From contig JBBTUL010000011.1 of assembly GCA_038063755.1 (NCBI GenBank), positions 71,040 to 135,039 on the forward strand: DNA of 64,000 nucleotides, in the 5' to 3' direction. Of this stretch, positions 21,838 to 64,000 are shown in pieces. The notes beneath the pieces are model-generated. The model was not told the DNA's origin. It made no database searches and was given only the letters and a program-made list of their open reading frames with translations. Every line of letters starts with the position of its first letter. The first letter of the stretch is position 1. Made by a program: the position numbers and the translations under genes. This DNA is from Patescibacteria group bacterium. GTDB lineage: Bacteria; Patescibacteriota; Minisyncoccia; UBA6257; 2-01-FULL-56-20.

Positions 21838-22484
21838 TTCTTTATGGCGCTATGATTTCCCGATACAAGTACTCTTGGAACGTCCCAGCTTTTCTTGCTT
21901 CTTCCCGGAAAAAATTTCTCCGGACGAGTATAGGTGGAAAATGAACCATTGACACTCTCGAGAGATTCGAGCTTTCCGAGAAATCCTGGTAAAAAACGAC
22001 TCGTTGATTCTGCAAGTACCAACGCAGCCAACTCGCCTCCCGAAAGAACATACTCACCAATAGAGATCTCCTCGTCAGCAATGTATTCTGCGACTCGCTC
22101 ATCGACGCCTTCGTATCTGCCGCAGATACAAACAATTCGTTCGTACTTTGAAAGTCGTTCCGCGTACGAGCTAGTAAGCTTCTTTCCCCGAGTGCTGAAA
22201 AGCAAAACCTTCGTCTTCTTCTTTCCTTTTGAAAGAATCGACGAAACTGCGCGAAAAATTGGGTCCACCTGGAGAACCATCCCGGGACCCCCACCAAATG
22301 GTCGATCATCGACTTTTTTGTGTCTTTCTCTTGAAAAATCACGGATATTATGGACAAAAACCTTTACGGTTCCCTCCATCCTTGCACGCCGAAATAAAGA
22401 TTCGTTAAGATAAGAATCAAAAATTCTTGGAAAAATAGTAAGAAAATGAAACTCGACTTGCCTAGCCTTTTTCTTTTCTTTCAT
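21819..22484 (-). CDS. trmD: tRNA (guanine37-N1)-methyltransferase
   Basis: FHFLTIFP ... DDRPFGGGPGMVLQVDPI ... SIGEYVLSGGE. Confidence 0.9.
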   Translation of the reverse strand: MKEKKKARQVEFHFLTIFPRIFDSYLNESLFRRARMEGTVKVFVHNIRDFSRERHKKVDDRPFGGGPGMVLQVDPIFRAVSSILSKGKKKTKVLLFSTRGKKLTSSYAERLSKYERIVCICGRYEGVDERVAEYIADEEISIGEYVLSGGELAALVLAESTSRFLPGFLGKLESLESVNGSFSTYTRPEKFFPGRSKKSWDVPRVLVSGNHSAIKKWRARK

Positions 22485-22492
22485 GGGTTTAT

Positions 22493-24427
22493 CTACTCTT
22501 CGTCGTGCGTTATCTCAGCTTTATGAAGTGATTCTGCTATTGCCTTTCTCAGGTCTGCAATGTTAACTCCGTCCTTTTTTCTTTCCGCTCTTTGTTTCTC
22601 TGGCACTGACCTTTCCGAAAGATCCTTGAGCGAAAGAGTTTTTTCGGTACTGCTTTGCTGCGATGCCCTTGCTTCTACTTCAATTCTTGGGACAAAAGAT
22701 CTTTTTCTCTGTTGAAACTGAAGCTCCGATCGCTCTGGGCGCTTCGGAAAGTCTTTATTCTGAATTTCCTGCGGAGCTTTTCGAGACACTGCCTCCTCGG
22801 GCTGCTCCGTCCTTTCCTCTGTCGGATGAAGAATCTTTGTTTTTTCTTCACCGCCTCCCTCGAACTCGATCCCGAGACTCGCAAGATCAGCAGAAAACTG
22901 TTTCTGATTAACGCTGACCTTCGGGGAGGAAGATCTCGATGCAGGCATAATTGTCCCCTCTTTTATCCCGGCGAGACATTCTCGGCAGTATACGGGCTTC
23001 CCGGGTATGGGCTCAAAAGGAACGGTTGTTTCTCTCCCGCAAGATGAGCAAATTGCCGAGAAAGACTCTCCGCTTCTCGGAGTGCTCGCTCGCGACATAA
23101 TTGTTTCTCCCTCTCCTCCCCTCGGAACCATTCCGGCCCATCGATTAATTTCGTCCTCAATGACTTCCCGGGGGCGAGCGTATCTTTCCCTTGACTGCTC
23201 AATAATTTCCTGCGCAGTCGATGCGTCCTCTACTCCTTTTATGGGCGGTAATGTTTTCGCGGAAAACGGCCTTGAGGCAACCCCGTCGCATAAAAGTTTC
23301 AAATAAATATGATAGTTCGGAAGGTTTACGATGTCTTGGATAGTAAACTCCGGCTCAAACTCGCTTTCGAGAAACTCCGCATCGGCAGCCCCGACACGAA
23401 AGATGATCATCGTTCCTGCGTTTCCAAAAATTGCGTCTCTTACTTTTGTAGAAACATCCGTAACAAGTTGTCCTATATATTGATGCGCCAGTATCAGATC
23501 AAGTCGATATTTTCTTGCTTCAGATAAAACACTCGCAAATGAATCCGTTGCGAAGTTTTGAAATTCATCGACGTAGAGATAGAAGTCGACGCGCTCGTCC
23601 TCCGGAATACGGACGCGCTCCATCGAGGCAAGTTGAATTTTCGTAATAAGCATCGCTCCCAAAAGCGCGGAGTTATCCTCCCCAATGCGCCCCTTGGAGA
23701 CATTTACCAAAAAAATCTTTCCTTCGTTCATAATGTTAAATATGTCCATCGTGCTTTTCGATTGTCCGACGACGTTTCTCACGATTGCGGTTGAAAGAAA
23801 TTGACCAACCTTGTTTTGAATAGGCGCTATGGCTTCGTTTCTGAACTTGTCTTGCCACGCCTCATACTCGTGAATCCAAAAAGCCTTTACCACTGGATCT
23901 TTAATGTTATTCACAATGGTCTGCCGAAATTCTTTATCGACCAAAATGCGAGTGATACCAAGGAGCGTTGAGCCGGGTGTGTCGAGAAGCGCAAGGATTG
24001 CGTTGTTTAAAATGTATTCCATTCTCGCCGACCAGACATTTGACCAAATTTTCGTAAAAATTCCCATAAGACCTGAAGCAACCAAATGCTTGTATTTCGG
24101 GTCTGGCAGTTCAAGCACATTAAAGCCAATGTGATAATCGATGTCAGCTGGATTGAAATATACGACATCCTTTACGCGCTCCTTCGGGATTTTCGAAAGA
24201 ACTCCCTCAATAAGCTCTCCGTGCGGGTCAACGACACACACGCCTTCGCCGTTTGCGATATCTTGAATAATAAGATTGCTTAAAAAAGCGGACTTTCCGG
24301 TACCGGTCTTTCCGATAACATACATGTGCTGCCTTCGATCGTTTCTTTTGATGCCAAAAATCCGATCGGCGTTACGAAAATCGGTTTTCGCAAAATATAC
24401 GACATCTCTGTCCGGTCTATCAATCAT
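22493..24427 (-). CDS. soluble VirD4/TraD/TraG-like (T4CP-like) P-loop ATPase with C-terminal zinc ribbon and a long charged tail (T4CP-like-1)
   Basis: Walker A HMYVIGKTGTGKS, Walker B FYLYVDEFQNF, and the AHQYIGQL coupling-protein motif. No N-terminal TM. C-terminal ribbon CSSCGRETTVPFEPIPGKPVYCREC, followed by a ~170-aa E/K/R/S-rich low-complexity tail. Confidence 0.75.
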   Translation of the reverse strand: MIDRPDRDVVYFAKTDFRNADRIFGIKRNDRRQHMYVIGKTGTGKSAFLSNLIIQDIANGEGVCVVDPHGELIEGVLSKIPKERVKDVVYFNPADIDYHIGFNVLELPDPKYKHLVASGLMGIFTKIWSNVWSARMEYILNNAILALLDTPGSTLLGITRILVDKEFRQTIVNNIKDPVVKAFWIHEYEAWQDKFRNEAIAPIQNKVGQFLSTAIVRNVVGQSKSTMDIFNIMNEGKIFLVNVSKGRIGEDNSALLGAMLITKIQLASMERVRIPEDERVDFYLYVDEFQNFATDSFASVLSEARKYRLDLILAHQYIGQLVTDVSTKVRDAIFGNAGTMIIFRVGAADAEFLESEFEPEFTIQDIVNLPNYHIYLKLLCDGVASRPFSAKTLPPIKGVEDASTAQEIIEQSRERYARPREVIEDEINRWAGMVPRGGEGETIMSRASTPRSGESFSAICSSCGRETTVPFEPIPGKPVYCRECLAGIKEGTIMPASRSSSPKVSVNQKQFSADLASLGIEFEGGGEEKTKILHPTEERTEQPEEAVSRKAPQEIQNKDFPKRPERSELQFQQRKRSFVPRIEVEARASQQSSTEKTLSLKDLSERSVPEKQRAERKKDGVNIADLRKAIAESLHKAEITHDEE

Positions 24428-26290: not shown

Positions 26291-28099
26291 TTACGCCGTC
26301 TCTGCCTGAAAACATCCTTCACAATAAACGATATCGGGAAGCGCCTTGTCATATGGAGACTCGAATGTATTCGTACAGCTTGATGACGATTCGTGGGCTT
26401 GATGCAGGGCGATGTTTTTATAGCCACCATCTAACGACACGTCCCCTCTACACTGACATTCTCGAGTATAGAGCTTTGCCGGAAGACGCTGTTTAATACG
26501 TTCGAAGTGGCGTGAATTGTAACAACGACGAGGGATTGGCAATCCGAACCTTTTATAGAATTCGAGTTCTTGTGGGATGATGCGAAAAACTCCCGTGCAG
26601 TTGTGCAGGATGGCCTCTTCGGAATCTTCATCCCAAGATCGGCATCGGATTGTTTGTCCGAGAAGGTCATCCGTGGCGTCCTCTATGGAATCCGGAACAT
26701 CTTGCCATCGCAGTGTCGCTTCGTGCTTTTTTCCCTCAGGTTTCTTCCATATCAGATGCTGTTCGGCAGCGGCATGTTCGGATAGTGGAAAGTTTTCTTG
26801 CGCGAGCGTGTGGTTATAGGGATAGGGAGAAAATTCCGCCGGGAAAAACTCGCCGTATGGGTACCGTAGCCCATTTGCGTCAACATACGGCATTGTATTC
26901 ATGTGCTCAATAACGCGTTCCCGGAGCGCGAAATACTCTTCCTTCGAATATTGCTTGTTCAAAATACAATACTCTCTCTTCTTAACTCCGGCACATCCGA
27001 AAAGATTTGAGGAATTACTACAATAGAGTGCGTATTCAAGATTCTTGTTTTCGGGCCAGCATTCCCAACAGAAGCGACAGTTATATATCCCCAAGCCACT
27101 TGCGACCGCTTCATAGACCAATTCGGCGTTATCTCCCCAGACGGTATAGTCGTAGCACTGCCTCGTGGGAGGCGTTAGTATGTACTGACAGTAACGACTG
27201 TCTTCAAGGCCAAGCGCAAGATAGCAATTTTCGGCATTTTTTGATTGATAGACATACGATCCCGAAGCATTTACGTTTTTGTTGTTTGCCGCATATTTAT
27301 TCGGAAACTTCAGCCAGAACTCGGCGCTTTTCTTCTTGAACTCTTCGATCTTTCCATAGGAGTTGAGAGCGAATTCCTTTACTCGTCTCTCGTATTCCTC
27401 CTTGGTGTAGGGTTCGTTGAAGATATGATATTTCTTGTTCTTTAAATTCACGCAACCGAAGCAGTCATGGCAACCAATACATTGTTTTGAGAACCACATA
27501 TCGTACGATCCGTTACAGCGCGTTGAAAAAAAGCACTTCGAACAGTCGGCGGAAAACGAAAGCTCGTAGCAGAATTCGCTACTATCCATATGTGAAAAAT
27601 CTATGCAGTTCTTTCCGTTATTAACCCCATTTCCGTACATGCAATCTTCGGCATAATTTCCGTTGAAAACGAGGTAGCAATTTTTAAACCCGGTATAATT
27701 GTTGGAATAGTCACTGTTTGTTCCATACACAACCGAAAGCGAGTAAATCGGCACCGCTTTCCAGAGGTCATAAAGCTGTGCAAGAAACGGCTTTGAAAAA
27801 TCGACCTCGCGCCCGAAAGACATCGGATCGATGGTGTCCCCGAAAAACAATTCATTCTCGACGATTTTTTGGCGGGAATCCGGAGGGAACATTGAAAATA
27901 TTTCCTTGCCCGAAACTTCGCTTTTTCGCTTATATAGGAAGCGCTCGTTTCTAAATGCCATCCTCCGCATCATCCTGCAGGCCGGACACCGCGTCGGTGG
28001 TGGAACATCCATCTTCTTGTAGAAATCGAAATCGACCGGCTCAAGAGCGAAATCCTGGTGACAACTCTCGCAGATGCGGTGTTCTATTGCGTCTGTCAC
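26291..28099 (-). CDS. cysteine-rich zinc-ribbon-flanked family protein, paralog C
   Basis: CESCHQDFALEPVDFDFYKKMDVPPPTRCPACR. Central CIGCHDCFGCVNLKNKKYHIFNEPYTKEEYE and FGCAGVKKREYCILNKQYSKEEY. C-terminus GVFRIIPQELEFYKRFGLPIPRRC ... PDIVYCEGCF. Sits in tandem with B. Confidence 0.8.
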   Translation of the reverse strand: MTDAIEHRICESCHQDFALEPVDFDFYKKMDVPPPTRCPACRMMRRMAFRNERFLYKRKSEVSGKEIFSMFPPDSRQKIVENELFFGDTIDPMSFGREVDFSKPFLAQLYDLWKAVPIYSLSVVYGTNSDYSNNYTGFKNCYLVFNGNYAEDCMYGNGVNNGKNCIDFSHMDSSEFCYELSFSADCSKCFFSTRCNGSYDMWFSKQCIGCHDCFGCVNLKNKKYHIFNEPYTKEEYERRVKEFALNSYGKIEEFKKKSAEFWLKFPNKYAANNKNVNASGSYVYQSKNAENCYLALGLEDSRYCQYILTPPTRQCYDYTVWGDNAELVYEAVASGLGIYNCRFCWECWPENKNLEYALYCSNSSNLFGCAGVKKREYCILNKQYSKEEYFALRERVIEHMNTMPYVDANGLRYPYGEFFPAEFSPYPYNHTLAQENFPLSEHAAAEQHLIWKKPEGKKHEATLRWQDVPDSIEDATDDLLGQTIRCRSWDEDSEEAILHNCTGVFRIIPQELEFYKRFGLPIPRRCYNSRHFERIKQRLPAKLYTRECQCRGDVSLDGGYKNIALHQAHESSSSCTNTFESPYDKALPDIVYCEGCFQAETA

Positions 28100-48860: not shown

Positions 48861-50600
48861 CTATGCGACTTCTGCGTTATAGCATTGCTCGCAGTATACG
48901 ATCTCGGGACGGTCGGGGGCGTAGGAGGTTTCGAATTCGCTTGGGCAGGGAGCGTTTTCGTGGTCGTGCCCTTTCTTGCACATACACCTACGACGCCAAA
49001 GGCGCAATGGTTTATGCAGGTCCATTCGCTCTCCTCTTCTACAGCCGGGGCACAGTCGCGGAATTGGTAAATCCATCTTTCGGTAAAAGCCGAACTCCTG
49101 TTGGGTGGTCTTAAAAGCGAGGGTGCAGTTATGGATGCATCCTTGGCGGTGCTCGCATTCTATAACTTCGCTCAGAATATCGTCGTTGGCCTCCTTGATC
49201 GTAGCCGGCAGATCGCTTGAGGTTTTTGTTGATTGGTACTCTCTTGGTTCCGGCTCGGCCCATCGACAGCCGAACGCCAACGCCTCGTCTTTATGCAGAG
49301 GAAAGTAAAACTGCGTCAGCGATTCGTTATACGCAAACGGGGAAAGTTCGACAGGAAAGAACTCGCCGTACGGGTACACCTGTCCGTTCAATCCAACGTA
49401 TGGATTGTTGCTCATACCCTCAACTATGCTCGCCCGAAGCTCTAAGTACTCGTCTTTGCCGTATTGCTTGTTTAATATGCAATATTGCTTTTTCCGCAGA
49501 CCTACACACCCGAAGAGATCTTGGCTAACACGACAGTAGTCACAATATTGGATTCTCGCACTACTCTCGAACGTGTTTAAAGAAAAATAAATATTGGAAT
49601 CGAGATATCCCACATTAACACCCTCGTATAACAGCGAACACTCCTTGTCCCCTACACCATACATGTCATAGGAATCCTTCGCGTGACTTGCCTGCGCGCA
49701 GTATTTGATATCTTCACAATCTGCGGAGTTGAAACTATGTTTTGCATTCTTGCAGTTAACGAGGTTATCGCCCGAGGAGCCAACGCACTTGATGATATTC
49801 GCATATTTATGAAACGCGGCTTCTTTCATGCGAACATATTCCATACGGAGTTCCCTCTGGGTAGAATAGTCGCTACTAATAGCTTCGAGCCGCTTCCGAT
49901 ACTCTTCTTCGGCAAGCTGTTGGTTACGAAACACAAATTTACCGTTGCGTAAATTGCTGCTCATAAAGCAGTCGGAAGAGTTGCGACAGTCATAAAGGTA
50001 TGAGCTATTCATGCAATCCTTGCAATCAGAAATGAAGACGCACTTCACGCAGCGTTCTGAATCCATAGCCTCGTAAACGCTCTCGGAATTCATAATCACG
50101 ATGGAATCAAGTGTTTCTCTACAGCTCCACGCCCCTTTGGAATACGACACTGTGTCTGAATTCAGCGTTGAGGGTGAAAGATACACGTTTTTAGAAAACC
50201 ACGTGAAATCAGAATAGGGCGAATTCTCGTTTTGATAAGCTTCCAGACTTGGCCTCGGCATGACATCCGAAAGCTCCTTCCACTGAGAGAAAAAAGTCTT
50301 GTTCGAATTGTATTCGAGGCCGTAATCCAATGGATCCCACTTATCAGACCACCAACACTCATTGCAATACACGGGGAATTTAACGCTTTTCGAATAATGA
50401 GAAATGCCCTGTATGCCGCATAACCCACACTGGAACTTATGCATATTGAACTCATTTCGGAAAAGCATTCTTCGCTTCATCCTACACTCCGGGCACCACG
50501 TCGGCGCCGGAACGTCTATCTTTTTGTAGAAATCGAAATCCTCGGATTCGATGGTGAACGCTTGATGACAACTTTGACAATTTTTTGTCTCTTGATTCAT
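48861..50600 (-). CDS. cysteine-rich zinc-ribbon-flanked family protein, paralog D
   Basis: MNQETKNCQSCHQAFTIESEDFDFYKKIDVPAPTWCPECR. Central YCDYCRVSQDLFGCVGLRKKQYCILNKQYGKDEY. C-terminus PEIVYCEQCYNAEVA. Start chosen to match the family N-terminus; the ORF is open to 50621. Confidence 0.8.
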   Translation of the reverse strand: MNQETKNCQSCHQAFTIESEDFDFYKKIDVPAPTWCPECRMKRRMLFRNEFNMHKFQCGLCGIQGISHYSKSVKFPVYCNECWWSDKWDPLDYGLEYNSNKTFFSQWKELSDVMPRPSLEAYQNENSPYSDFTWFSKNVYLSPSTLNSDTVSYSKGAWSCRETLDSIVIMNSESVYEAMDSERCVKCVFISDCKDCMNSSYLYDCRNSSDCFMSSNLRNGKFVFRNQQLAEEEYRKRLEAISSDYSTQRELRMEYVRMKEAAFHKYANIIKCVGSSGDNLVNCKNAKHSFNSADCEDIKYCAQASHAKDSYDMYGVGDKECSLLYEGVNVGYLDSNIYFSLNTFESSARIQYCDYCRVSQDLFGCVGLRKKQYCILNKQYGKDEYLELRASIVEGMSNNPYVGLNGQVYPYGEFFPVELSPFAYNESLTQFYFPLHKDEALAFGCRWAEPEPREYQSTKTSSDLPATIKEANDDILSEVIECEHRQGCIHNCTLAFKTTQQEFGFYRKMDLPIPRLCPGCRRGERMDLHKPLRLWRRRCMCKKGHDHENAPCPSEFETSYAPDRPEIVYCEQCYNAEVA

Positions 50601-50655
50601 GGTCGTGTTTGTCCCGCCCACAGGCGGGATCCTCGATTTTGTCTATTCGCTACGC

Positions 50656-50730: not shown

Positions 50731-52452
50731 TTATGCAACCTCTGCGTTATGGCAAGATTCACAGTATAGATTCTCTCCGGGAAGCGATGTTTCAAACGCG
50801 TTTCCGCATGGGCTGTCGCCATGCGCGTGAGAAACGCTGTTTTGATAACCGCCCGAGCCAATCGTTCCTCTGCAAGCACATTGGCCTTCGTGGAGGTAAT
50901 TTGGTCCGCGAGCTTGAAATCTCCTGGCATGTCGACAATCTGGACAAAGCCGGGGAAGCGGCACTGAAAGTTTTTTGTAAAACGCAAATTCATCGGGAAT
51001 AATTCGATAATTTTTCTTGCAATCGATGCAGGCAAAAATCTTTTCAACAAGCGATTGATCGGCATCGCCAATCGCATCAGGAATCTCCGCCCAGGAAATC
51101 GTTTCTTTTCCAAATGTGCCGCGCTCGAAATCCTCCCACTTAAAACCAAGCTCGAGCGCCTCTTCCTTTGAGAGCGGAAACTGTTCCATTGCTGCGGATT
51201 CGTTGTAGCCAAACGTGCTGACTGATGCGGGGAAGAATTCGCCGTAATTTCCCGCATCTTTCATAGACGCAACTATCTTCTCGCGCAGTGTTTGATACTC
51301 CTCTTTCGAATATTCGTGGTTAAGAATGCAGTAATCTTTTTTACGAACTCCAACCGATCCAAAACAGTTGTTCGCATTGAAGCAGTAGTAGCAGTATTCC
51401 GTAAACGAACACGTCCAGCACATGCGGCAGCAGATTTGATTCGAGACATCCATTCCGGCGTTCACCGTGTTATACATCATCTCAGCGTTGCGCCCCGTAG
51501 TATCGCAGTCCATACAATCCTTGGCGTTACGCCACACATGGACGTTATACTTACAATCCTCGGCCTCATAACAATGAAAGCAGGATTTGCAATTTTTTGC
51601 GTTTTTTATGTAGTTTCCGCTTGAATTTGGCGCTTGGACAATTTCTGCATACTTTCTCGGTTGGGTTTTCAAAAATTTCTCGAATTTTTCTCTGAACGCT
51701 TCAACGCCGGAATTCGTATCGAGTCGGAAATTCTGCAGCTCCTTTTCATATTCTTCTTTCGAATATGGCTTATTGAAAATGCAGTATTTGGAGTTTCTTA
51801 AATTCACACACCCAACGCAGTTCGACACACCTCGACAGTCAAACAGAAAGGCACTCTCGCGGCAATCATGACATCCTCTGCTCCAGGAAATGCCGTAGCA
51901 GCCATAACAGTCGTCGCTTTCGTACGAAAGCTCGGTTTGGTGTGAAAATGAAACGTCGACAAGATCACGACATTGCTGAATCCAATAACAATGCGTGCAA
52001 TTCTCGTTGTTTGAAGACTCCACGATCATGTAGCAATTCTTGCTGTCTGCGGAAATATTCGTGTATTCCGAATTCGTGCTACGAATGTATACGAGCGCTA
52101 CTTTCGGAACCGAATCCCATACCGCCTTGAACTGTTCCATGAACGGTCTCGATGGCGTGTATGCCCGGCCATAATCAAGTGGATTCCAATCGTCGGAGAA
52201 CCAGCAGTCATGACACCAGACGGTATACGGCTTCTCGGGACTATACATGGAGATCACCACTTTCTTGCATTTGTCGCACGCGCGTCGATAGAAACTCCGT
52301 TCGTTACGGAATGAAAGTCGGTGTCTCGCACGACAGAGAGGACAAAGCTTCGGCGCCAGAACGTCTATCTTTTTATAGAAATCAAAATCTTCCGGTTCGA
52401 TGAAAAAAGGCTTCTTGCATTGTGTGCAGGTTTTCGTCTCCGGCATTGTCAT
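50731..52452 (-). CDS. cysteine-rich zinc-ribbon-flanked family protein, paralog E
   Basis: CTQCKKPFFIEPEDFDFYKKIDVLAPKLCPLCR. Central FDCRGVSNCVGCVNLRNSKYCIFNKPYSKEEYE. C-terminus NYRIIPDEFAFYKKLSVPLPRLCPDCRH ... NLYCESCHNAEVA. Confidence 0.8.
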   Translation of the reverse strand: MTMPETKTCTQCKKPFFIEPEDFDFYKKIDVLAPKLCPLCRARHRLSFRNERSFYRRACDKCKKVVISMYSPEKPYTVWCHDCWFSDDWNPLDYGRAYTPSRPFMEQFKAVWDSVPKVALVYIRSTNSEYTNISADSKNCYMIVESSNNENCTHCYWIQQCRDLVDVSFSHQTELSYESDDCYGCYGISWSRGCHDCRESAFLFDCRGVSNCVGCVNLRNSKYCIFNKPYSKEEYEKELQNFRLDTNSGVEAFREKFEKFLKTQPRKYAEIVQAPNSSGNYIKNAKNCKSCFHCYEAEDCKYNVHVWRNAKDCMDCDTTGRNAEMMYNTVNAGMDVSNQICCRMCWTCSFTEYCYYCFNANNCFGSVGVRKKDYCILNHEYSKEEYQTLREKIVASMKDAGNYGEFFPASVSTFGYNESAAMEQFPLSKEEALELGFKWEDFERGTFGKETISWAEIPDAIGDADQSLVEKIFACIDCKKNYRIIPDEFAFYKKLSVPLPRLCPDCRHARRFQARGPNYLHEGQCACRGTIGSGGYQNSVSHAHGDSPCGNAFETSLPGENLYCESCHNAEVA

Positions 52453-57560: not shown

Positions 57561-59312
57561 CTATGCTACTTCTGCATTGTAGCAACCTTCACAATACACG
57601 ATCTCGGGGCGACCGGGGGCGTAGGAGGTTTTGAATTCTGCGAAGCAAGAAGTATTCCCGTGTGAGTGAGGGATGGTATTTTTGTACACGCCGCTTGTCG
57701 ATTGCGGACCACCACAGTCGCAACTTCGCTTCCATAACCTCGGAGGATTCACTCTTTTAAACCGCGCATAATAGCGACAATTCGGACATAAAACCGGAAG
57801 AGGAACACCAAACCTCCGATAAAGCTGAAGTTCTGCGGGAACGATTCGAAAGGCGGCTGTGCATTTTTCTCCGCACCCACCATCATGACTACAACCGATC
57901 ACCTCATTTACAATGTCATCCTGAACCTCGGTTATCAAGTCAGGAAGCTCTGCGGGCTTCTTCGTTATCGCGTAATTCTTTTTTTCATCATCCTTCCAGC
58001 GCTCTCCATGTCGCAACGCTTCGTCTTTTGAAACGGGAAACCAATCAAGGGCCGCGGATTCGTTGTACGCAAACGGACTAAGCTTGTTCGGAAAAAACTC
58101 GCCATATTCCCCCGTTCGTTTCATATGTTCAGCGATCTTCGCTCTCAATGTCTCAAACTCTTCCTTTGAATATTTTTTATTCAAAATCGCGTAGGAGGCA
58201 TGCTTCAGTCCCGCTGAACCAAACACGTTCGTGCACGAATGACAGTTATTTGAGTACTCCGCATCAACGCATTTCCAGCAAAATACCGTAAACTTATTTC
58301 CCCGAGAGTTATCGGGCGTAACAGATTCATAGCACAACTCCGGGTTTCCGGTGTAAATACAGTCGTACGAATCTTTGGCTCGATCATTTATGACAATGTA
58401 GGATGAATTCTCGATTGGCGAGAAACAGTAAAAGCACTGTTTTGCCGATTTTGCCTCAAGAAGAAAGAACCCCGAGGAGTTGGTTGTTTTGGGGGCGTGT
58501 GTGTACCTTCGCGGAAACTGCAGACTAAATTCACTAAACATTTTTTTGTTCGCTTCGATGCCCGCACGACTTCCGAGATTCAACTTCGCAAGCTCTTTCT
58601 CGTACTCGTCCTTAGCGTACTGTCTGTTAAGGATGCAATATCGCTTGTTTCGCAAACCGACACATAAAACACAGTCAGAGCATCCTCTAAGATCGAACCC
58701 GAACACGCAATTGTTTGAGTCAAAACAAAGTTCACAATATTTGCAGTTATAACACTTATCGCAGTTAATGCTTTCGTACATCAATTCGGAATTATTTACA
58801 TTCCATGCGTCCATAATGTCCTTCGCATGATTCACGATGTACATATAAAGGCCGTTTTCGACGTACCAACCACAAGCCCCAAGATAACAGTTTTTACTAA
58901 ATGCCCAATCGTAGGTATATTCGCAATTCACACTACCAACACCATCGTCGTTCATACTCGATATTGCCGGCACCTTATTCATGAGTTCCTGAAGTTGATC
59001 AAAGAATGGACGTGAAAAATCAAAATCACGCCCATATGAGGCCGGATCCCATCCGTCAGACCACCAGCACCTTACGCAATAGACCGGAAATTCTGTATCG
59101 GGTGGATACATTCCAATCATATCCTTCCTGCACAAATCACACTTGCGGCGATAAAACGTCCGCTCGTTGCGAAATCTTAGCCGACGTTTCAGGCGACACT
59201 CCGGGCACCAGGTCGGATACGGAACGTCTATCTTTTTATAGAAATCGAAATCTTCGGATTCGATCGTGAAATCCTTATGGCAGTTTTGACAAACCTTGAT
59301 TTCACTACTCAT
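57561..59312 (-). CDS. cysteine-rich zinc-ribbon-flanked family protein, paralog F
   Basis: CQNCHKDFTIESEDFDFYKKIDVPYPTWCPECR, then RKCDLCRK...VYCVRCW. Central FGFDLRGCSDCVLCVGLRNKRYCILNRQYAKDEYE. C-terminus AAFRIVPAELQLYRRFGVPLPVLCPNCRY ... PEIVYCEGCYNAEVA. Confidence 0.8.
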   Translation of the reverse strand: MSSEIKVCQNCHKDFTIESEDFDFYKKIDVPYPTWCPECRLKRRLRFRNERTFYRRKCDLCRKDMIGMYPPDTEFPVYCVRCWWSDGWDPASYGRDFDFSRPFFDQLQELMNKVPAISSMNDDGVGSVNCEYTYDWAFSKNCYLGACGWYVENGLYMYIVNHAKDIMDAWNVNNSELMYESINCDKCYNCKYCELCFDSNNCVFGFDLRGCSDCVLCVGLRNKRYCILNRQYAKDEYEKELAKLNLGSRAGIEANKKMFSEFSLQFPRRYTHAPKTTNSSGFFLLEAKSAKQCFYCFSPIENSSYIVINDRAKDSYDCIYTGNPELCYESVTPDNSRGNKFTVFCWKCVDAEYSNNCHSCTNVFGSAGLKHASYAILNKKYSKEEFETLRAKIAEHMKRTGEYGEFFPNKLSPFAYNESAALDWFPVSKDEALRHGERWKDDEKKNYAITKKPAELPDLITEVQDDIVNEVIGCSHDGGCGEKCTAAFRIVPAELQLYRRFGVPLPVLCPNCRYYARFKRVNPPRLWKRSCDCGGPQSTSGVYKNTIPHSHGNTSCFAEFKTSYAPGRPEIVYCEGCYNAEVA

Positions 59313-59352: not shown

Positions 59353-60801
59353 TCAAATAAGCGGCTCCGGAGGAAGATTCGACTGTATCGCCGAATGACC
59401 CTTCCCTTCGATAATTGCCTTTTCCTGCGCACTCCGAATAATAGTCGACTCTTCCTCTGCAATAAGTCGTCGCGCGTCATCAGCCGGAATAGAATATTTT
59501 TCTCGCGACTGAGCAAGGATTTCGGGCTTAAACGAACGATGTGGAGGATCAAGAACGGCCAGCGTTTCGGCAGAGAAAGGATCGTACGACTCTCCATCAA
59601 TCGTCATTTTAATATAAAATTCCCGCATCCCAAGATTGATCATGTCTTTTACGTCGAAGATCGGAGCCATTTCTGGTTTAAGCGTCACGGCATCATCCCC
59701 TCCCACGCGAAAGATCACAATACTCCCTACGTTTCCCAAAACCGCTGCTTGAACGCGCGGCAGGAGCTGTCCCATATATTGGTGCGCAACGGTAAGTGCT
59801 AAGCCGTACTTTCTGGCCTCCGAGAGAATATTCTCGAATGTCTCAGTAACCAAGTTTTGAAACTCGTCGACATAAAGATAAAAATCGTGACGCTCGGATT
59901 CGGGCAAGGCAGCGCGAGCCATACCAGCCTGCTTGATCTTGGTAATGAACATCGAACCGAAAAAACTTGAGTTCTCTTCTCCAAGCCTCCCTTTAGAAAG
60001 ATTGATCAAGATAATCTTCTTTTGCTGAATAAGCTCCTCAAGTTTTATTTTGTTCCCTTTTTGTCCGAAAATATTTCGCAGTGTTGGATCTGAAAGAAAC
60101 TGTCCGAGCTTGTTTACGAGCGGAATAATCGCGTCGGTATCGAACTTTTCGGACCAATCCGCAAATTCGATCGCCCAGAAACGCTTTACCATGTCGTCTT
60201 CGATGTATTCGACGACCTTCTGGCGATAGTTCCGGTCAGTAAGCATAGAAATCATACCTCGCATGGTGGCGTGCGGGTAATCAAGGAGCGCTAAAACCGT
60301 GAATCGAAAAACGTGCTCAAGACGCGGCGTCCAGTTCGCGCCAAACTGTTTTTCCATTACTTCAATCAGGCCCTGAGTGAGCTGATGCTTAAACAATGGA
60401 TCAACATTTGCAAGCGGATTGAAAGATGCCGGAAACGCGTGATCTGATGGGTCTATAACGACTACATCCCCTATCCGATTCTCGGGAATGAAATCAAGCG
60501 TCGCTTCGACAACGTCTCCGTGCGGATCAATGAGGCAAAGACCGTATCCTTGCGCAATGTCTTGGCGCATCATAAGTTCAAGCAGCTTCGTCTTTCCAAC
60601 GCCGCTTTTTCCAATTATGTACATATGACGTCGCCGATCTTTCCGTTTGATGCCAAAAATGAAACGTTTCTCTTCAAGCGCCGCAACGTAATTCGTTCTT
60701 CCGATAAAAGAAACTTCGCTCGTGTCTACTTTGCCGTATATCGGCAAATCCGTCGGGGGCGGAGCATATTTGATTATCTGTATTCGATTCGCCTTTGGCA
60801 T
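59353..60801 (-). CDS. soluble VirD4/TraD/TraG-like (T4CP-like) P-loop ATPase (T4CP-like-2)
   Basis: HMYIIGKSGVGKT Walker A, FYLYVDEFQNL Walker B, AHQYMGQLL. The N-terminal region is alignable with T4CP-like-1 (FGIKR.DRR.HMY.IGK). ATGA start/stop overlap with the upstream gene. Confidence 0.75.
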   Translation of the reverse strand: MPKANRIQIIKYAPPPTDLPIYGKVDTSEVSFIGRTNYVAALEEKRFIFGIKRKDRRRHMYIIGKSGVGKTKLLELMMRQDIAQGYGLCLIDPHGDVVEATLDFIPENRIGDVVVIDPSDHAFPASFNPLANVDPLFKHQLTQGLIEVMEKQFGANWTPRLEHVFRFTVLALLDYPHATMRGMISMLTDRNYRQKVVEYIEDDMVKRFWAIEFADWSEKFDTDAIIPLVNKLGQFLSDPTLRNIFGQKGNKIKLEELIQQKKIILINLSKGRLGEENSSFFGSMFITKIKQAGMARAALPESERHDFYLYVDEFQNLVTETFENILSEARKYGLALTVAHQYMGQLLPRVQAAVLGNVGSIVIFRVGGDDAVTLKPEMAPIFDVKDMINLGMREFYIKMTIDGESYDPFSAETLAVLDPPHRSFKPEILAQSREKYSIPADDARRLIAEEESTIIRSAQEKAIIEGKGHSAIQSNLPPEPLI

Positions 60802-61304
60802 CAGATTGCTTCGATTTCCTTCAAAAATGCTTCGTAATCGCCAATTGTCTCCTTGGCATCATCTTGAGAAACAGCAAACCCTGGACTGTGGACAAGATCA
60901 TTGCGAACGCGATGAGCTCGCCAAATACGCGGAAACGACTTCAGTTCATCTGAGGTAAGTCGGGCAAGTCTATCCGCGAAATGTTCTCCAGGAAGGCCGA
61001 GCTGTTTTAAAATGTCGTCTACAAGTCCATCGGCATCGATTATCGCAAATTTTACAGCATCGAGAGATCCGCCTTCGAGGCGCTTCGTGATTTCACTCCA
61101 ACGCTCTGCGATAACGGCGCTTCTCAATGTTCTCTTTCTCTTGTGCTTGGCCGGGTTAAAAACAAAATTTGGTCTGAACTTTAAGAGGCCGGAAATTGAG
61201 AAAACCAAAATCACGACAAGCCCAACATCAAAGACAATAAAGACGATTTTTAAAAAAATAAAGAATCCGCTAAATCCCTCGAAAAAACTTTGAAGTCCTT
61301 GCAT
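60801..61304 (-). CDS. TM-anchored protein with a HEPN-like Rx4-6H motif
   Basis: N-terminal TM helices (FFIFLKIVFIVFDVGLVVILVFSISGLL). C-terminal helical domain with RAHRVRNDLVHSPGF (R-N-x3-H). Confidence 0.5.
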   Translation of the reverse strand: MQGLQSFFEGFSGFFIFLKIVFIVFDVGLVVILVFSISGLLKFRPNFVFNPAKHKRKRTLRSAVIAERWSEITKRLEGGSLDAVKFAIIDADGLVDDILKQLGLPGEHFADRLARLTSDELKSFPRIWRAHRVRNDLVHSPGFAVSQDDAKETIGDYEAFLKEIEAI

Positions 61305-61321: not shown

Positions 61322-62686
61322 TTAATTAAATCGATCCATTGCTCCTTCCTCGCCGTAGATCGGAAGTCCGGCAGGCGGGCCAGCCTTTCGGCTGACGACG
61401 CGCTTAATATGAGGTGCGGTGAGCACCAAAAATGTCGGTGGATGAAATAACGATGAAAGGCAACGGATGTTCATGGGGAAGCTCTTCGCTCCAAAATTCC
61501 ATCCGAAAAGATACGAAGTCATAAGTTTTGAGGTAAACATCTTCGATGGAAGTCGAGGACTCCGGTAGCTCGAAAGCATTCTTTGTTTTCGGTAACGAAC
61601 ACGATACTTTGAGAATATATGAGGCCAGTCCCAAATTTGTCCGCGCGTTTCGACTCCCGGTGTGTTTTTTCGAAATGAGTTCAGGTTGACGGCCGCATAC
61701 TGGTTGAAAGCTCCGCTAATTCCTCTTCTGGGGAAGTTTTCCAAGAATATTTCCTTCGGAGATATGTACATGATGCGAATTCTCGTCTCGAATGCGGGAA
61801 AAGAAAGATTTTCTTCGATAGCCTTCAGGACATCTGTTTCTCCTGGCGTACGCTGCAGTAAGGCACGGCCAAGCGCTTGTTCCTGGCTTGTTGCCTCTGC
61901 GACTTTTTTGACGACGCTGAATGCCGGAAGAATTCCACCCGGAAACTCCGCGGCGGTTCCAACGCTTGATCCTCCTCCTTTTTTCACCCGAAGCATTTTT
62001 TCCTTTCGATCTTTTAGGCTGTCGATTAGTCCTTCAAACTGCACGCTCCAATCAGGACCGAGGGCAGCAACAATAATCTGGATGCCGACAAACTCTCCGG
62101 GCTTTGCTTTTCCCAGGACTTCAAGAAACGCGGAAATCGGATCATATTGCTTGTCTTCGTCGGGAGACTCAAAGTCAAGGTAAGTTTTTATCGGATACGC
62201 AGCGCTCTTCGCCAAAATAAGTTCTGTTCCCCATAGCTCATACCCTCGCTCGTACACCTCTCCCATGTTCCGAGGAAGCGAGTCGAGATATTCTTCCGGC
62301 TGTGTTATCTCGATATCGGGGTAGTAAGAAAAAAACGCCGCCTCGACCAGCTCCTTGTGCTTCTTTGGGGTCCTTACATAAAAATGAATCTCACCGCCAT
62401 GACTTACCATTTCGAATGTAAACCACAGAGTAACTTCTCCCTCCCAGTACCATTCTTTTAGGTTTCCCGGAGCGTTTCTGAGGGAGTGTATCGCGGAAAA
62501 AATTTGTTCCATGCCCTTCGGGCTTTTCTTGATTTCTCTTGGAATATGAAGTTCGAGGAGAACGAACGGGATTCTCCCTTTATATTCTTCTTGACGCCAC
62601 GACATCCACGCGTTCCTGGCGATTGGGAAAAAAATCACAAACACGATGATCCACCAAATGGAAGCGATGAAGTCAAGCAAAAACAT
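61322..62686 (-). CDS. hypothetical membrane protein (454 aa, N-terminal TM then large soluble domain)
   Basis: N-terminal TM IASIWWIIVFVIFFPIA. No NTP-binding motif. Tightly linked upstream of the HEPN-like gene and T4CP-like-2. Confidence 0.55.
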   Translation of the reverse strand: MFLLDFIASIWWIIVFVIFFPIARNAWMSWRQEEYKGRIPFVLLELHIPREIKKSPKGMEQIFSAIHSLRNAPGNLKEWYWEGEVTLWFTFEMVSHGGEIHFYVRTPKKHKELVEAAFFSYYPDIEITQPEEYLDSLPRNMGEVYERGYELWGTELILAKSAAYPIKTYLDFESPDEDKQYDPISAFLEVLGKAKPGEFVGIQIIVAALGPDWSVQFEGLIDSLKDRKEKMLRVKKGGGSSVGTAAEFPGGILPAFSVVKKVAEATSQEQALGRALLQRTPGETDVLKAIEENLSFPAFETRIRIMYISPKEIFLENFPRRGISGAFNQYAAVNLNSFRKNTPGVETRGQIWDWPHIFSKYRVRYRKQRMLSSYRSPRLPSKMFTSKLMTSYLFGWNFGAKSFPMNIRCLSSLFHPPTFLVLTAPHIKRVVSRKAGPPAGLPIYGEEGAMDRFN

Positions 62687-62732
62687 TTGTCATTATTATA
62701 CCATCGTCAGCCTTGTTGTGTGAACGCAGAAA

Positions 62733-62768
62733 ACACAAAAAGCCCCGTTCCGGGGCTTTTTGTTTTGT
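62733..62768. terminator. palindromic, probably bidirectional, rho-independent terminator
   Basis: AAAAA-GCCCCG-ttc-CGGGGC-TTTTTGTTTT, immediately downstream of the sigma-R4 HTH gene stop. Confidence 0.6.
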
Positions 62769-62770
62769 GT

Positions 62771-63811
62771 CTACGCTTCCTTGATGTCGTATGCACCGTC
62801 TTCCTTTCTCGTAAAGTGCTCTCGATTCTGAAGATTAACAAGAATGGTGTTGTTCTTGAAGAGTCGCTCCTTCTGCACGGCAAGCACGACCTCATTTGAC
62901 CTCAAGGGTCCATGTTTTTTAAGAATTTTCATTATGATCTCCCTCGCCGTTCCCGGTTCATATCCGTGTTCCGAAAGACCATAGATACCCCGCCCAACAA
63001 GCACGAAACGAGAATCCTTGATAAGCTCGTTGTGCACCGTTGAGGCAATGGCAACCTTCATGTCAAAACGAGCGTTATTGATAAGACTTGCGATGTCCTC
63101 GAAATGAACCGGTTCCTGATTCCTCTTCATCACCGCGTAGATTCGATCGCGAATTGTTCTCGGATTGATCTCCGGCCAGTCGGAAAGACCAATATCACCG
63201 AAAGAGTTCTTGTGGATTCTCTTCGAGATGCTCGCGTATTCTGCCGCATGTGCAGGAACTATCTTTTTTTCCTTAATGAAGTTTTTAAATTCGGCTTGGT
63301 ATCCGCCATTTAAGATTTTCGCTTTTTGCGCTTTGAGGGCGCTTGCCCACTGCGCTATAAATGCCTTCGCTTTCTTGAGCGATGGTACGTCGAGGTAATA
63401 AAGTGGAGTAATTTCGTCATCACCATTGTGCTCGTGGAAAGCTTTCGACGAAGCAAGTAAAACGGAAAGGTGATTCTCGTGAAGATCTTCGTATGAACCT
63501 TGAAGATTTCCGACCATCGCTTCTTTTCGAATCACTCCTCCAACGTCCTTGAGGCACTTCTTCCCCTGCTTCAAAACGTCTTGTACAAGCGGATGCGTTA
63601 CCGCAGCATCTCCAATAACCTTAAGCGCGGAGGCCTCGATTTGTCGAACCCTTTCTCGAGTCACCCCAAACCGCTTCCCGATCGCATCAAGAGTTTCTCC
63701 TTCAACTGGTCCATTCTTTCCGATACCAAAACGCCCCGCTACAACCTCTTTTTGGCGATCGGTGAGATTCTTAAATAATTGCTGTAATACCTTCGCTTGA
63801 AATGAACTCAT
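62771..63811 (-). CDS. sigma-70 region 4-type HTH DNA-binding protein with a large uncharacterised C-terminal domain
   Basis: LTDRQKEVVAGRFGI ... ETLDAIGKRFGVTRERVRQIEASALKVI is a typical sigma region 4.2 HTH. The remaining ~270 aa are unassigned. Confidence 0.65.
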   Translation of the reverse strand: MSSFQAKVLQQLFKNLTDRQKEVVAGRFGIGKNGPVEGETLDAIGKRFGVTRERVRQIEASALKVIGDAAVTHPLVQDVLKQGKKCLKDVGGVIRKEAMVGNLQGSYEDLHENHLSVLLASSKAFHEHNGDDEITPLYYLDVPSLKKAKAFIAQWASALKAQKAKILNGGYQAEFKNFIKEKKIVPAHAAEYASISKRIHKNSFGDIGLSDWPEINPRTIRDRIYAVMKRNQEPVHFEDIASLINNARFDMKVAIASTVHNELIKDSRFVLVGRGIYGLSEHGYEPGTAREIIMKILKKHGPLRSNEVVLAVQKERLFKNNTILVNLQNREHFTRKEDGAYDIKEA

Positions 63812-64000
63812 GAATCTTGGCTGTTTGATTTAACGTTTATCATTATAAATCGGCCCTTTTCTATTGTCAAGCCCAGATCACGCAGAAACAAGCTTCTCAC
63901 TACCGAACCTACTTCTTCAGAGAAAGCCTCTGCCAAACCACGAGAAGCGGGCTTGCAACGAAAATTGAGGAATAGACTCCGGTCGTCACGCCGACAAGTA

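What the first reader, a model, noticed from the sequence alone, without database searches (positions are those of the whole stretch)
60801..61304. Membrane-anchored HEPN-like protein (R-N-x3-H) co-translated with the T4CP-like ATPase
The 167-aa ORF begins with two hydrophobic helices and ends in a helical domain containing RAHRVRNDLVHSPGF, a good fit to the Rx4-6H HEPN RNase motif (R-N-D-L-V-H). Its stop overlaps the start of T4CP-like-2 (ATGA). HEPN domains in toxin, Abi and CRISPR-accessory proteins are typically effector RNases. A TM-tethered HEPN next to a translocase-like ATPase is unusual.
Basis: partly seen in the sequence, partly recalled or inferred. Interest (0 to 1): 0.55.

Follow-up and report, generated by a model that had tools for sequence, protein, structure and literature searches.

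The report
Membrane-anchored HEPN protein in Patescibacteria
This small gene encodes a membrane-tethered protein whose cytoplasmic half has the fold and conserved active-site residues of HEPN RNA-cutting enzymes; it belongs to a large, unnamed family found only in ultra-small Patescibacteria, here in one operon with an orphan conjugation-type ATPase whose function is an open question.

Summary

Best reading: a cytoplasm-facing, membrane-anchored HEPN endoRNase working within, or gated by, this ATPase complex. The fold is well supported. RNase activity, substrate and physical coupling are inferred. The stop/start overlap is TGATG (1 nt), not ATGA.

The parts
60801..61304 (-). Gene for the 167-aa membrane-anchored HEPN protein (TM-HEPN, subfamily A)
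   Evidence: ORF. Homologues. AF2 model at pLDDT 88.8. HEPN fold hits.
61179..61247 (-). Conserved transmembrane segment (about residues 20-42) with a polar intramembrane position, D26
   Evidence: Hydropathy. Single helix 2-42 in the model. K+R averages 5.4 in the 20 residues after the TM against 1.1 before it, which places the C-terminal domain in the cytoplasm. D26 is D in 127/186 and S or N in 39/186.
60816..61127 (-). [quoted passage not shown]
60888..60905 (-). R134-N135-D-L-V-H139, the Rx4H HEPN motif at the C-terminal end of helix 3
   Evidence: Sequence. Conservation: R 182/186, N 183/186, H 174/186; the upstream H131 is kept in 185/186.
59353..60801 (-). T4CP-like P-loop ATPase (482 aa, 'ATPase2'). 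It has no TM segment, and its start overlaps the HEPN stop by 1 nt.
   Evidence: Pfam TrwB_AAD_bind, DUF87, T4SS-DNA_transf and TraG-D_C. No hydrophobic segment. Walker A GKSGVGKT. 54-84% identical across related loci, 72-84% in most.
61322..62686 (-). DUF8128 protein (454 aa): N-terminal TM helix plus a VirB4-N-terminal-domain-like globular part. First gene of the operon.
62695..62724 (-). Promoter-like site (TTCACA, 18-nt spacer, TG-extended TATAAT; 11 of 12 matches) just upstream of DUF8128
   Evidence: Consensus scan.
62735..62763 (.). Strong intrinsic-terminator-like hairpin (13-bp stem) between the sigma70_r4/HARE-HTH gene and the operon promoter
   Evidence: Consensus scan.
57561..59312 (-). 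Cys-rich 583-aa protein with a treble-clef zinc finger, 40 nt downstream of the ATPase. It recurs in this position in related loci.
   Evidence: Weak zf_Tbcl match. Follows the ATPase in most of the 35 loci. Six paralogues in the window.
62771..63811 (-). Conserved upstream neighbour: sigma70 region-4 plus HARE-HTH protein (346 aa). Probably a separate transcription unit.
   Evidence: Pfam. Synteny. Terminator and promoter lie between it and DUF8128.
22493..24427 (-). Paralogous T4CP-like ATPase ('ATPase1', 644 aa, 43% identical) with a C-terminal zf_Tbcl_2. It lies next to trmD and comEC. In some relatives this type follows the HEPN gene.
   Evidence: tblastn. Pfam. In L001, L014, L021 and L031 the ATPase1 type follows the HEPN gene.

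Best explanation
The gene encodes a single-pass inner-membrane protein with a short N-terminus outside and a cytoplasmic HEPN domain. That domain keeps every sequence hallmark of catalytically active HEPN endoribonucleases.

In this subfamily the gene is the middle cistron of a Patescibacteria-specific operon. The operon runs: TM plus VirB4-NTD-like protein (DUF8128), then TM-HEPN, then a TM-less T4CP-like hexameric-type ATPase, usually followed by Cys-rich zinc-finger proteins.

The most likely mechanism is this. The protein sits at the cytoplasmic face of the membrane next to the DUF8128/ATPase complex. There it cleaves RNA without a metal cofactor, leaving 2',3'-cyclic phosphate ends. Its activity is gated by assembly with, or the nucleotide state of, the ATPase. 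This would parallel other HEPN-NTPase pairs such as Las1-Grc3, PrrC, RloC and Ire1/RNase L.

Shown here: the gene is real; the fold is HEPN; the motif is conserved; the topology is predicted; the operon and synteny are conserved.
Inferred: RNase activity, the RNA substrate, and physical or functional coupling to the ATPase.
For: Fold and motif
[quoted passage not shown] This matches the published HEPN definition (PMC3710099).
- Of 143 members scanned singly, the commonest sub-threshold Pfam matches include HEPN_Swt1 (27), Hypoth_Ymh (14), HEPN_Cthe2314 (9), DUF4145 (8) and HEPN_RiboL-PSP (7).
- Catalytic-type residues are conserved: H131 185/186, R134 182, N135 183, H139 174, D92 183, D96 178, K/R100 169.

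Topology
- The positive-inside rule places the HEPN domain in the cytoplasm.

Coupling to the ATPase
- There is a 1-nt stop/start overlap with the ATPase.
- A predicted promoter lies before DUF8128 and a terminator before that.
- DUF8128, HEPN and ATPase lie in that order on one strand in 34/35 loci.
- Searching from DUF8128 instead gave the same arrangement in 3/3 cases.
- The ATPase has no TM segment. DUF8128 is VirB4-NTD-like, and a fused DUF8128-ATPase gene exists in L005.
- An intramembrane Asp is found in the ATPase-linked subfamily (127/186) but in none of 120 members of the gatA-linked subfamily.
Against: - No experiment or multimer model shows RNase activity, dimerisation or contact with the ATPase.
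- A sister subfamily keeps the same motif but lies after gatC-gatA, with no ATPase or DUF8128 within 7 kb. The HEPN protein can therefore function without the ATPase operon.
- A fused DUF8128-ATPase gene in L005 has no HEPN gene immediately upstream of it (the preceding genes are a peptidase and a 589-aa protein), although the locus shows only its first ~200 nt. The ATPase machine may therefore not need HEPN.
- No HEPN Pfam model reaches its gathering threshold.
- H139 is replaced in 12/186 members.
- The precedent Csx28 shows that a TM-HEPN can act as a pore rather than as an RNase.
Confidence: 0.55

Rival explanations
1. It is a stand-alone housekeeping membrane RNase. On this view the TM-HEPN family is a general inner-membrane endoribonuclease of Patescibacteria, working in RNA decay or processing or as a tRNase, functionally like membrane-anchored RNase Y. 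Its position in the ATPase operon would be conserved gene order without mechanistic coupling.
For: - Subfamily B (420 proteins) has the same architecture and RNxxxH motif (112/120). It lies after gatC-gatA among aaRS, RRF and MreB genes, with no ATPase nearby, in 4/4 contexts examined.
- Both contexts are core-gene neighbourhoods.
- The HEPN protein evolves much faster (about 45% identity) than the ATPase (72-84% in most loci).
Against: - The stop/start overlap or 8-30 nt spacing to the ATPase is kept in nearly every subfamily-A locus.
- The gene always sits between the two parts of what is elsewhere a single fused DUF8128-ATPase protein.
- The subfamily-A-specific intramembrane Asp suggests a subfamily-specific membrane partner.
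Confidence: 0.25
2. It has a non-catalytic structural role. The TM-HEPN would oligomerise into a ring, as Csx28 does, or would serve as the missing membrane stalk or anchor for the TM-less T4CP-like hexamer. The conserved R, N and H would then bind phosphate or nucleotide, or form protomer interfaces, rather than cleave RNA.
For: - The ATPase lacks the N-terminal TM domain that canonical T4CPs have.
- Csx28 has the same layout, an N-terminal TM helix plus a cytoplasmic HEPN bundle. It forms an octameric pore in which HEPN-motif residues make interfaces.
- The conserved polar residue inside the TM helix fits a helix-helix or pore-lining role.
Against: - The motif here is canonical and near-invariant (R-N-x3-H plus an upstream acidic residue), unlike the divergent motif of Csx28.
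- DUF8128 already supplies a TM helix.
- Subfamily B exists without an ATPase.
Confidence: 0.12
3. It is a defence or abortive-infection effector. On this view the HEPN is a toxin RNase released or activated by the ATPase when foreign DNA enters, as in HerA- or AAA-linked defence systems or Abi HEPN proteins.
For: - Most prokaryotic HEPN families are toxins or defence effectors (PMC3710099).
- The ATPase gives weak matches to PADLOC models mad8, DndH and HerA, as expected for any FtsK/HerA-superfamily P-loop.
Against: - There is no PADLOC hit for the HEPN, DUF8128 or Cys-rich proteins.
- There is no adjacent MNT or antitoxin-like gene, and no Tyr at H+2 as in HepT.
- Synteny with secDF, trmD and comEC is fixed across Liptonbacteria, Jorgensenbacteria, Wolfebacteria, Ryanbacteria, Kaiserbacteria and others.
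- ATPase identity of 72-84% in most loci is the opposite of the patchy, fast-evolving pattern of defence islands.
Confidence: 0.06

Closest known systems
HEPN superfamily (Anantharaman et al. 2013, PMC3710099); nearest solved structures are HepT/HEPN-T toxins (5yep_B, 7ae2, 8xdj) and AF0298 (2hsb)
   Same: - Four-helix up-down bundle with an insert between helices 2 and 3.
- R-[polar]-x3-H at the end of helix 3.
- A conserved acidic residue followed by a basic one in helix 2.
   Different: - No HEPN Pfam model reaches threshold.
- There is no MNT partner and no Rx4HxY tyrosine.
- It is membrane-anchored.
- It is encoded in a core-gene operon, not in a TA or defence locus.
Bacterial membrane-associated HEPN groups (PMC3710099, section 15): DUF4145 HEPN with a single 'WP' TM helix; Abi2/Swt1 HEPN after a single TM helix
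   Same: - An N-terminal single TM helix followed by a cytoplasmic HEPN with an intact motif.
- The weak profile affinity is highest for HEPN_Swt1, and also touches DUF4145.
- Those groups were likewise predicted to process RNA at the inner face of the membrane.
   Different: - A conserved R-P follows the TM here, rather than a WP signature.
- No extra N-terminal globular domain.
- All source-named members seen are from Patescibacteria.
- A fixed operon with DUF8128 and a T4CP-like ATPase, or placement after gatCA. Neither context appears in the passages of that paper that I read.
Csx28 (type VI-B2 CRISPR accessory protein; bioRxiv 10.1101/2021.11.02.466367)
   Same: Similar architecture: an N-terminal TM helix plus a cytoplasmic four-helix HEPN-like bundle.
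   Different: - Csx28 has a divergent motif, forms a face-to-back octameric pore, and depends on Cas13b.
- Here the motif is canonical, there is no CRISPR context, and Csx28 is not among the top structural hits.
HEPN-NTPase pairs (Las1-Grc3, PrrC/RloC, Ire1/RNase L KEN domain, Ava_2192 HEPN-AAA+). Partly from PMC3710099, partly from my own knowledge.
   Same: A HEPN nuclease is genetically or physically coupled to a nucleotide-binding module that could gate its activity.
   Different: The partner here is an FtsK/HerA-superfamily T4CP-like ATPase encoded as a separate polypeptide. No such pairing appeared in the literature I searched.
Orphan T4CP (VirD4-like) homologues of Patescibacteria (PMC12102498)
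   Same: The neighbouring ATPases are of this kind. That paper reports 5,713 T4CP homologues in 2,918 genomes, only 148 of them near virB4, with function unknown and 'possibly exapted'. This window has two copies and neither has a virB4 neighbour.
   Different: That paper does not mention the HEPN partner. TrsD (a VirB4-NTD homologue) is discussed there only in connection with virB4.

Membership tests
HEPN superfamily | [quoted passage not shown] | tested here: met
HEPN superfamily | Rx4-6H motif at the end of helix 3 or the start of the helix 3-helix 4 loop | tested here: met
   R134-x4-H139 ends helix 124-139. R is kept in 182/186 and H in 174/186. Definition from PMC3710099.
HEPN superfamily | Polar residue (N, D or H) immediately after the conserved R | tested here: met
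   N135 is kept in 183/186. Subfamily B has RN in 112/120, with one RD and one RS.
HEPN superfamily | Conserved acidic residue in helix 2, typically as Ex3[KR] | tested here: met
   D96-x3-K100 lies in helix 81-101 (D 178/186; K/R 169/186), with D92 also kept in 183/186. It is Asp rather than Glu.
HEPN superfamily | Significant match to a curated HEPN profile | tested here: not met
   No Pfam or NCBIfam hit for the window protein. Only sub-threshold hits among members: HEPN_Swt1 best E 8.8e-4, HEPN_RiboL-PSP 2.4e-4, DUF4145 2.8e-3. This means it is not a member of any modelled HEPN family; it does not exclude the superfamily.
HEPN superfamily | Metal-independent endoRNase activity dependent on R and H, with a dimer that juxtaposes two motifs | not testable with these tools
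   This needs biochemistry or a multimer structure prediction.
HepT/MNT (HEPN-MNT) toxin-antitoxin | Adjacent MNT nucleotidyltransferase antitoxin, and an Rx4HxY tyrosine that is AMPylated | tested here: not met
   The neighbours are DUF8128 and a T4CP-like ATPase. The motif continues H-[ST]-P-G-F, with no Tyr at +2.
Csx28 | Single N-terminal TM helix plus cytoplasmic HEPN-like bundle | tested here: met
   compared with the description.
Csx28 | Encoded with Cas13b (type VI-B2); divergent HEPN motif; specific structural similarity | tested here: not met
DUF4145-type TM-HEPN (PMC3710099, section 15) | [quoted passage not shown] | tested here: not met
   DUF4145 appears only sub-threshold, in 8/143 members. 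The conserved signature after the TM is R44-P45 (R 132/186, P 141/186), not WP.
Type IV coupling protein (neighbouring ATPase, for context) | VirD4/TrwB-type nucleotide-binding domain | tested here: met
   TrwB_AAD_bind 37.2 bits (cutoff 20.5), T4SS-DNA_transf 24.1 (20.1), TraG-D_C 22.9 (22.0). Walker A is present. The best PDB sequence hit is TrwB.
Type IV coupling protein (neighbouring ATPase, for context) | N-terminal transmembrane domain, and linkage to VirB4, a relaxase or a T4SS | tested here: not met
   No hydrophobic segment. No virB4 or relaxase in the window operon or related loci. This agrees with PMC12102498.
VirB4 N-terminal domain (neighbouring DUF8128, for context) | Structural similarity to VirB4 outside the P-loop domain, and an NTD-then-ATPase domain order | tested here: inconclusive
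Known anti-phage defence systems (PADLOC) | Match to a defence-system protein model | tested here: not met
   No hits for the HEPN, DUF8128 or Cys-rich proteins. The ATPase gives only generic FtsK/HerA-type weak hits.

The most novel reading that the evidence does not exclude
TM-HEPN, DUF8128 and the TM-less T4CP-like ATPase together form a previously unrecognised, Patescibacteria-specific membrane machine derived from VirB4/T4CP. In it, a ring or dimer array of TM-HEPN supplies the membrane stalk and an RNA-cleaving gate. The complex would translocate or process RNA, or RNA-bound Cys-rich zinc-finger cargo, at the membrane. Possible purposes are nucleotide scavenging from hosts or effector delivery. 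This would explain why these reduced genomes keep about two orphan T4CP homologues each.
Probability: 0.12. Interest if true: 0.85.

Novelty: new variant of a known kind. Interest (0 to 1): 0.6.

Why it matters
Patescibacteria (CPR) make up a large share of bacterial diversity, have tiny genomes, and depend on hosts for nucleotides. A 2025 survey found about two orphan T4CP-like ATPases per genome, unlinked to the T4SS, and could only suggest they were 'exapted' (PMC12102498).

This finding gives those ATPases a conserved genetic partnership: a VirB4-NTD-like membrane protein and a membrane-anchored protein with an intact HEPN RNase site. The family has about 3,000 sequence clusters and no Pfam or NCBIfam model.

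If the HEPN is active and coupled to the ATPase, it would be an example of a HEPN nuclease built into a conserved, apparently housekeeping membrane ATPase complex rather than a toxin or defence module. It would also make the function of the orphan T4CPs directly testable through RNase assays, pull-downs and multimer modelling. If instead it is an independent membrane RNase, it is a candidate for a lineage-specific RNA-decay enzyme in these organisms.

Tried and rejected
- **Direct Pfam/NCBIfam scans of the ORF.** These gave only noise: DUF4559 at E 0.041 and phosphatidylcholine synthase at 0.089.
- **PDB sequence searches, single protein and profile.** These gave only a weak similarity of helix 3-4 to the N-terminus of RNA polymerase subunit Rpb5 (E 0.15-0.6). 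I treat it as chance. Fold searches do not support it.
- **Profile of DUF8128 against PDB sequences.** No hit.
- **afdb50 fold library.** Unavailable.
- **PADLOC.** Nothing for the HEPN, DUF8128 or Cys-rich proteins.
- **L036 upstream gene.** I first read a short hhalign match (AMPAGLHIMGR against GPPAGLPIYGE) as a divergent DUF8128 upstream of the L036 HEPN. Pfam showed that protein is GatA. This revealed the second, gatCA-linked subfamily.
- **Basic partner for the intramembrane Asp.** I looked for a conserved basic residue in the DUF8128 TM helix to pair with D26 and found none.
- **Apparent fusions.** Two representatives look like fusions of the HEPN domain, with a MoCF_biosynth/CinA-like domain (P0265) and with an unidentified N-terminal region (P0284). 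Each comes from a single contig. P0265 has no DUF8128 or ATPase neighbours. I did not build on them.
- **Organism labels.** Labels such as 'uncultured Candidatus Saccharibacteria' on TPA assemblies were not trusted for taxonomy. Their ATPases are mostly 60-84% identical to Parcubacteria ones.
Full report
**Observation**

The window carries a 167-aa ATG-initiated ORF at 60801-61304 on the minus strand. It contains the quoted peptide RAHRVRNDLVHSPGF, and R134-N-D-L-V-H139 is encoded at 60888-60905. The N-terminal 40 residues are strongly hydrophobic.

The downstream gene (59353-60801, 482 aa) passes the Pfam thresholds for TrwB_AAD_bind, DUF87, T4SS-DNA_transf and TraG-D_C. It has a Walker A motif.

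- The stop/start overlap is a single base. The minus strand reads ATC-TGA-TG-CCA, so the junction is TGATG, not ATGA.
- The AlphaFold2 model gives one continuous helix over residues 2-42, at pLDDT 91-98 across residues 11-40, rather than two hydrophobic helices.

The ORF is clearly a real gene. There are 37 close homologues at E down to 1e-74, all from Patescibacteria metagenome bins. A family profile finds 2,990 representatives of 50%-identity clusters at E<=1e-3, and 2,170 at E<=1e-10.

**Is the C-terminal domain HEPN?**

The 2013 survey of the HEPN superfamily defines the domain as follows (PMC3710099):
- a four-helix up-down bundle with a variable insert between helices 2 and 3;
- a polar residue after the R;
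- often an acidic residue in helix 2, as Ex3[KR].

The AF2 model (mean pLDDT 88.8) matches each point. It has helix 1 (60-78), helix 2 (81-101), an insert with a short helix (109-114), helix 3 (124-139) ending in R134-N135-x3-H139, and helix 4 (147-163). Helix 2 carries D92 and D96-x3-K100.

Structure searches agree:
- Foldseek's top 12 are all HEPN, with probability 0.8-1.0 and weak E-values (>=0.019).

In a 186-sequence alignment the key residues are near-invariant:

| Residue | Kept in (of 186) |
|---|---|
| H131 | 185 |
| R134 | 182 |
| N135 | 183 |
| H139 | 174 |
| D92 | 183 |
| D96 | 178 |
| G106 | 185 |
| R112 | 180 |

No curated profile covers the family. When 143 members were scanned one by one, the recurring sub-threshold Pfam matches included several HEPN families: Swt1 (27), Ymh (14), Cthe_2314 (9), DUF4145 (8) and RiboL-PSP (7).

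I conclude that this is a distinct, unmodelled family of the HEPN superfamily with an intact catalytic-type motif.

**Topology**

The conserved hydrophobic segment is about residues 20-42. It is followed by a conserved R-P and a Lys/Arg-rich linker. K+R averages 5.4 in the 20 residues after the segment and 1.1 before it. By the positive-inside rule the HEPN domain is cytoplasmic. Longer homologues add a second, N-terminal TM helix preceded by a Lys-rich start, which gives the same orientation.

**Context**

On the minus strand the order is:
- sigma70_r4/HARE-HTH gene (62771-63811);
- a strong terminator-like hairpin (62763-62735);
- a near-consensus extended -10 promoter (62724-62695);
- DUF8128 (61322-62686);
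- 17 nt of spacer, then TM-HEPN;
- a 1-nt overlap, then ATPase2;
- 40 nt of spacer, then a 583-aa Cys-rich protein.

This order is strongly conserved:
- All five contexts reached from HEPN homologues show secD, secF, sigma_r4/HARE-HTH, DUF8128, TM-HEPN and a T4CP-like ATPase in that order.
- Across 35 loci with flanks, including 30 from species-representative genomes, 34 have DUF8128, HEPN and ATPase in that order on one strand.
- Starting instead from three DUF8128 proteins on long contigs, all three have a 159-171-aa ORF with the HR[IL]RNxxVH motif between DUF8128 and the ATPase.

ATPase2 is 72-84% identical to the window protein in most of these loci (54-60% in three). The HEPN protein is about 45% identical and DUF8128 about 50%.

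**What the partners are**

ATPase2 has no hydrophobic segment, whereas canonical T4CPs carry an N-terminal TM domain.

In one relative (L005) DUF8128 and the ATPase are fused into a single 792-aa protein. That is the NTD-then-ATPase order of VirB4. The operon therefore looks like a split VirB4/T4CP-derived machine with the TM-HEPN gene inserted between its two halves. The aligned range in TrwK was not reported and there is no sequence-level match, so 'VirB4 N-terminal domain' remains an inference.

A 2025 survey found 5,713 T4CP homologues in 2,918 Patescibacteria genomes. Only 148 were near virB4, their function is unknown, and the authors suggested they may have been exapted. The survey does not mention HEPN (PMC12102498). 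The window has two such ATPases. The second (22493-24427) carries a C-terminal treble-clef zinc finger and lies next to trmD and comEC. In some relatives this type directly follows the HEPN gene.

**A second subfamily limits the inference**

Divergent members (about 30% identical to the window protein, 420 proteins) have the same TM plus HEPN architecture and RNxxxH in 112/120. They lie immediately after gatC-gatA in a core cluster containing MreB, RRF, RseP, aaRS and GyrB genes, in all four contexts examined. No DUF8128 or T4CP-like ATPase lies within 7 kb.

So the family as a whole is not obligately tied to the ATPase. One subfamily-specific feature stands out. A polar intramembrane position is Asp in 127/186 subfamily-A proteins (Ser or Asn in a further 39), while none of 120 subfamily-B proteins has an acidic residue in the TM core. 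This is compatible with a membrane partner specific to subfamily A. I found no matching conserved basic residue in the DUF8128 TM helix.

**Mechanism**

Best-supported reading (confidence 0.55): the protein is a cytoplasm-facing, membrane-anchored HEPN endoRNase. In this subfamily it works within, or is gated by, the DUF8128/T4CP-like ATPase complex. This follows the recurring pairing of HEPN nucleases with nucleotide-binding modules: Las1-Grc3, PrrC/RloC, the Ire1/RNase L KEN domain, and Ava_2192 HEPN-AAA+ (the last from PMC3710099; the others partly from my own knowledge).
- Shown: the gene, the fold, motif conservation, predicted topology, and the operon with its synteny.
- Inferred: catalysis, the substrate, and physical coupling.

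Rivals:
1. An independent housekeeping membrane RNase (0.25). Subfamily B favours this.
2. A non-catalytic anchor or a Csx28-like ring for the TM-less ATPase (0.12). The Csx28 precedent favours this. The canonical, invariant motif and the absence of Csx28 from the top structural hits count against it.
3. A defence or Abi toxin (0.06). Against it: no PADLOC hits, no antitoxin-like neighbour, and fixed synteny with core genes in many lineages (Liptonbacteria, Jorgensenbacteria, Wolfebacteria, Ryanbacteria, Kaiserbacteria, Azambacteria, Minisyncoccia).

**Comparison with known systems, and novelty**

Membrane-tethered HEPN domains are already known. Three bacterial groups were described in 2013, with the prediction that they process RNA at the inner membrane face (PMC3710099, section 15). 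Csx28 has the same one-TM plus HEPN layout.

This family fails the defining extras of each known group: it has no WP signature, no DUF4145 threshold match, no Cas13b and no MNT partner.

Several things appear to be new:
- the family itself, which is large, seen only in Patescibacteria so far, and unmodelled;
- its placement in core-gene neighbourhoods rather than defence loci;
- its fixed operonic partnership with a VirB4-NTD-like protein and an orphan T4CP-like ATPase.

Literature searches found no paper linking HEPN to Patescibacteria T4CPs or to DUF8128.

I rate it a new variant of a known kind, with interest 0.6. The fold assignment is solid and the context bears on an acknowledged open question, but function remains inferred.

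Noticed in passing
window 57561-59312, 50731-52452, 48861-50621, 26291-28099, 24488-26263, 9378-11150 (all minus strand): There are six paralogues (38-43% identical) of a ~575-600-aa Cys-rich protein. Four of the five scanned give weak N-terminal treble-clef zinc-finger (zf_Tbcl) matches and the sixth, at 48861-50621, was not scanned. Together they take about 16% of the window. In related loci one to three copies follow the T4CP-like ATPase, and ATPase1 carries a related zf_Tbcl_2. They could be cargo or adaptors of the ATPases. No PDB or PADLOC match.
   Followed up: partly
window 61322-61390 (DUF8128 C-terminus) and 60730-60801 (ATPase2 N-terminus): The DUF8128 C-terminal tail, R-K-x-G-P-P-A-G-L-[PA]-I-[YF]-G-E-E, is nearly invariant yet disordered in the AF2 model (pLDDT <50). 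The N-terminus of ATPase2 has a similar PPPxDLP[IV]YG motif in the window and in several relatives. This may be a docking peptide or a relic of the DUF8128-ATPase fusion junction.
   Followed up: partly
L005 12300-12501 (gene runs off the locus): A 792-aa gene fuses DUF8128 to a T4CP-like ATPase (Pfam DUF8128 + DUF87 + T4SS-DNA_transf + TraG-D_C). It is a second copy in a genome that also has the split DUF8128/HEPN/ATPase operon.
   Followed up: no
L036 1483-2016, L041 4001-4534, L042 7001-7546, L043 7001-7510: A sister subfamily of TM-HEPN proteins (about 30% identical, 420 members) always lies directly after gatC-gatA in a core translation and cell-shape gene cluster, without any T4CP-like ATPase. 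These proteins have no acidic residue in the TM helix.
   Followed up: yes
window 59353-60801 compared with L003-L035: ATPase2 is 72-84% identical in most of the related Parcubacteria loci, far above the ~45-50% of its operon partners. That implies very strong constraint on an ATPase of unknown function.
   Followed up: partly
window 22493-24427 with 21819-22484 (trmD), 20419-21837 (comEC), 19560-20444 (metallo-beta-lactamase): The second T4CP-like ATPase has a C-terminal treble-clef zinc finger and is syntenic with trmD-comEC, both here and in relatives (L001, L013, L014, L021). This may indicate a link to DNA uptake.
   Followed up: no
window 62771-63811 and 63842-63870: A 346-aa protein combines sigma-70 region 4 (N-terminal), HARE-HTH and a winged-helix domain. 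It is conserved between secF and DUF8128 in nearly all related loci. A perfect 12/12 sigma-70 consensus promoter precedes it.
   Followed up: no
window 60816-60935 (HEPN helices 3-4): There is a recurrent weak sequence similarity to the N-terminal domain of eukaryotic RNA polymerase subunit Rpb5 (PDB E 0.15-0.6; Pfam RNA_pol_Rpb5_N in 5/143 members). It is probably chance, and fold searches do not support it.
   Followed up: partly
L040 4001-4876: On a single metagenome contig a 291-aa protein fuses a MoCF_biosynth (CinA-like) domain to the family's HEPN domain without a TM helix. It is divergently adjacent to recA. This could be a real fusion or an assembly or gene-calling artefact.
   Followed up: partly
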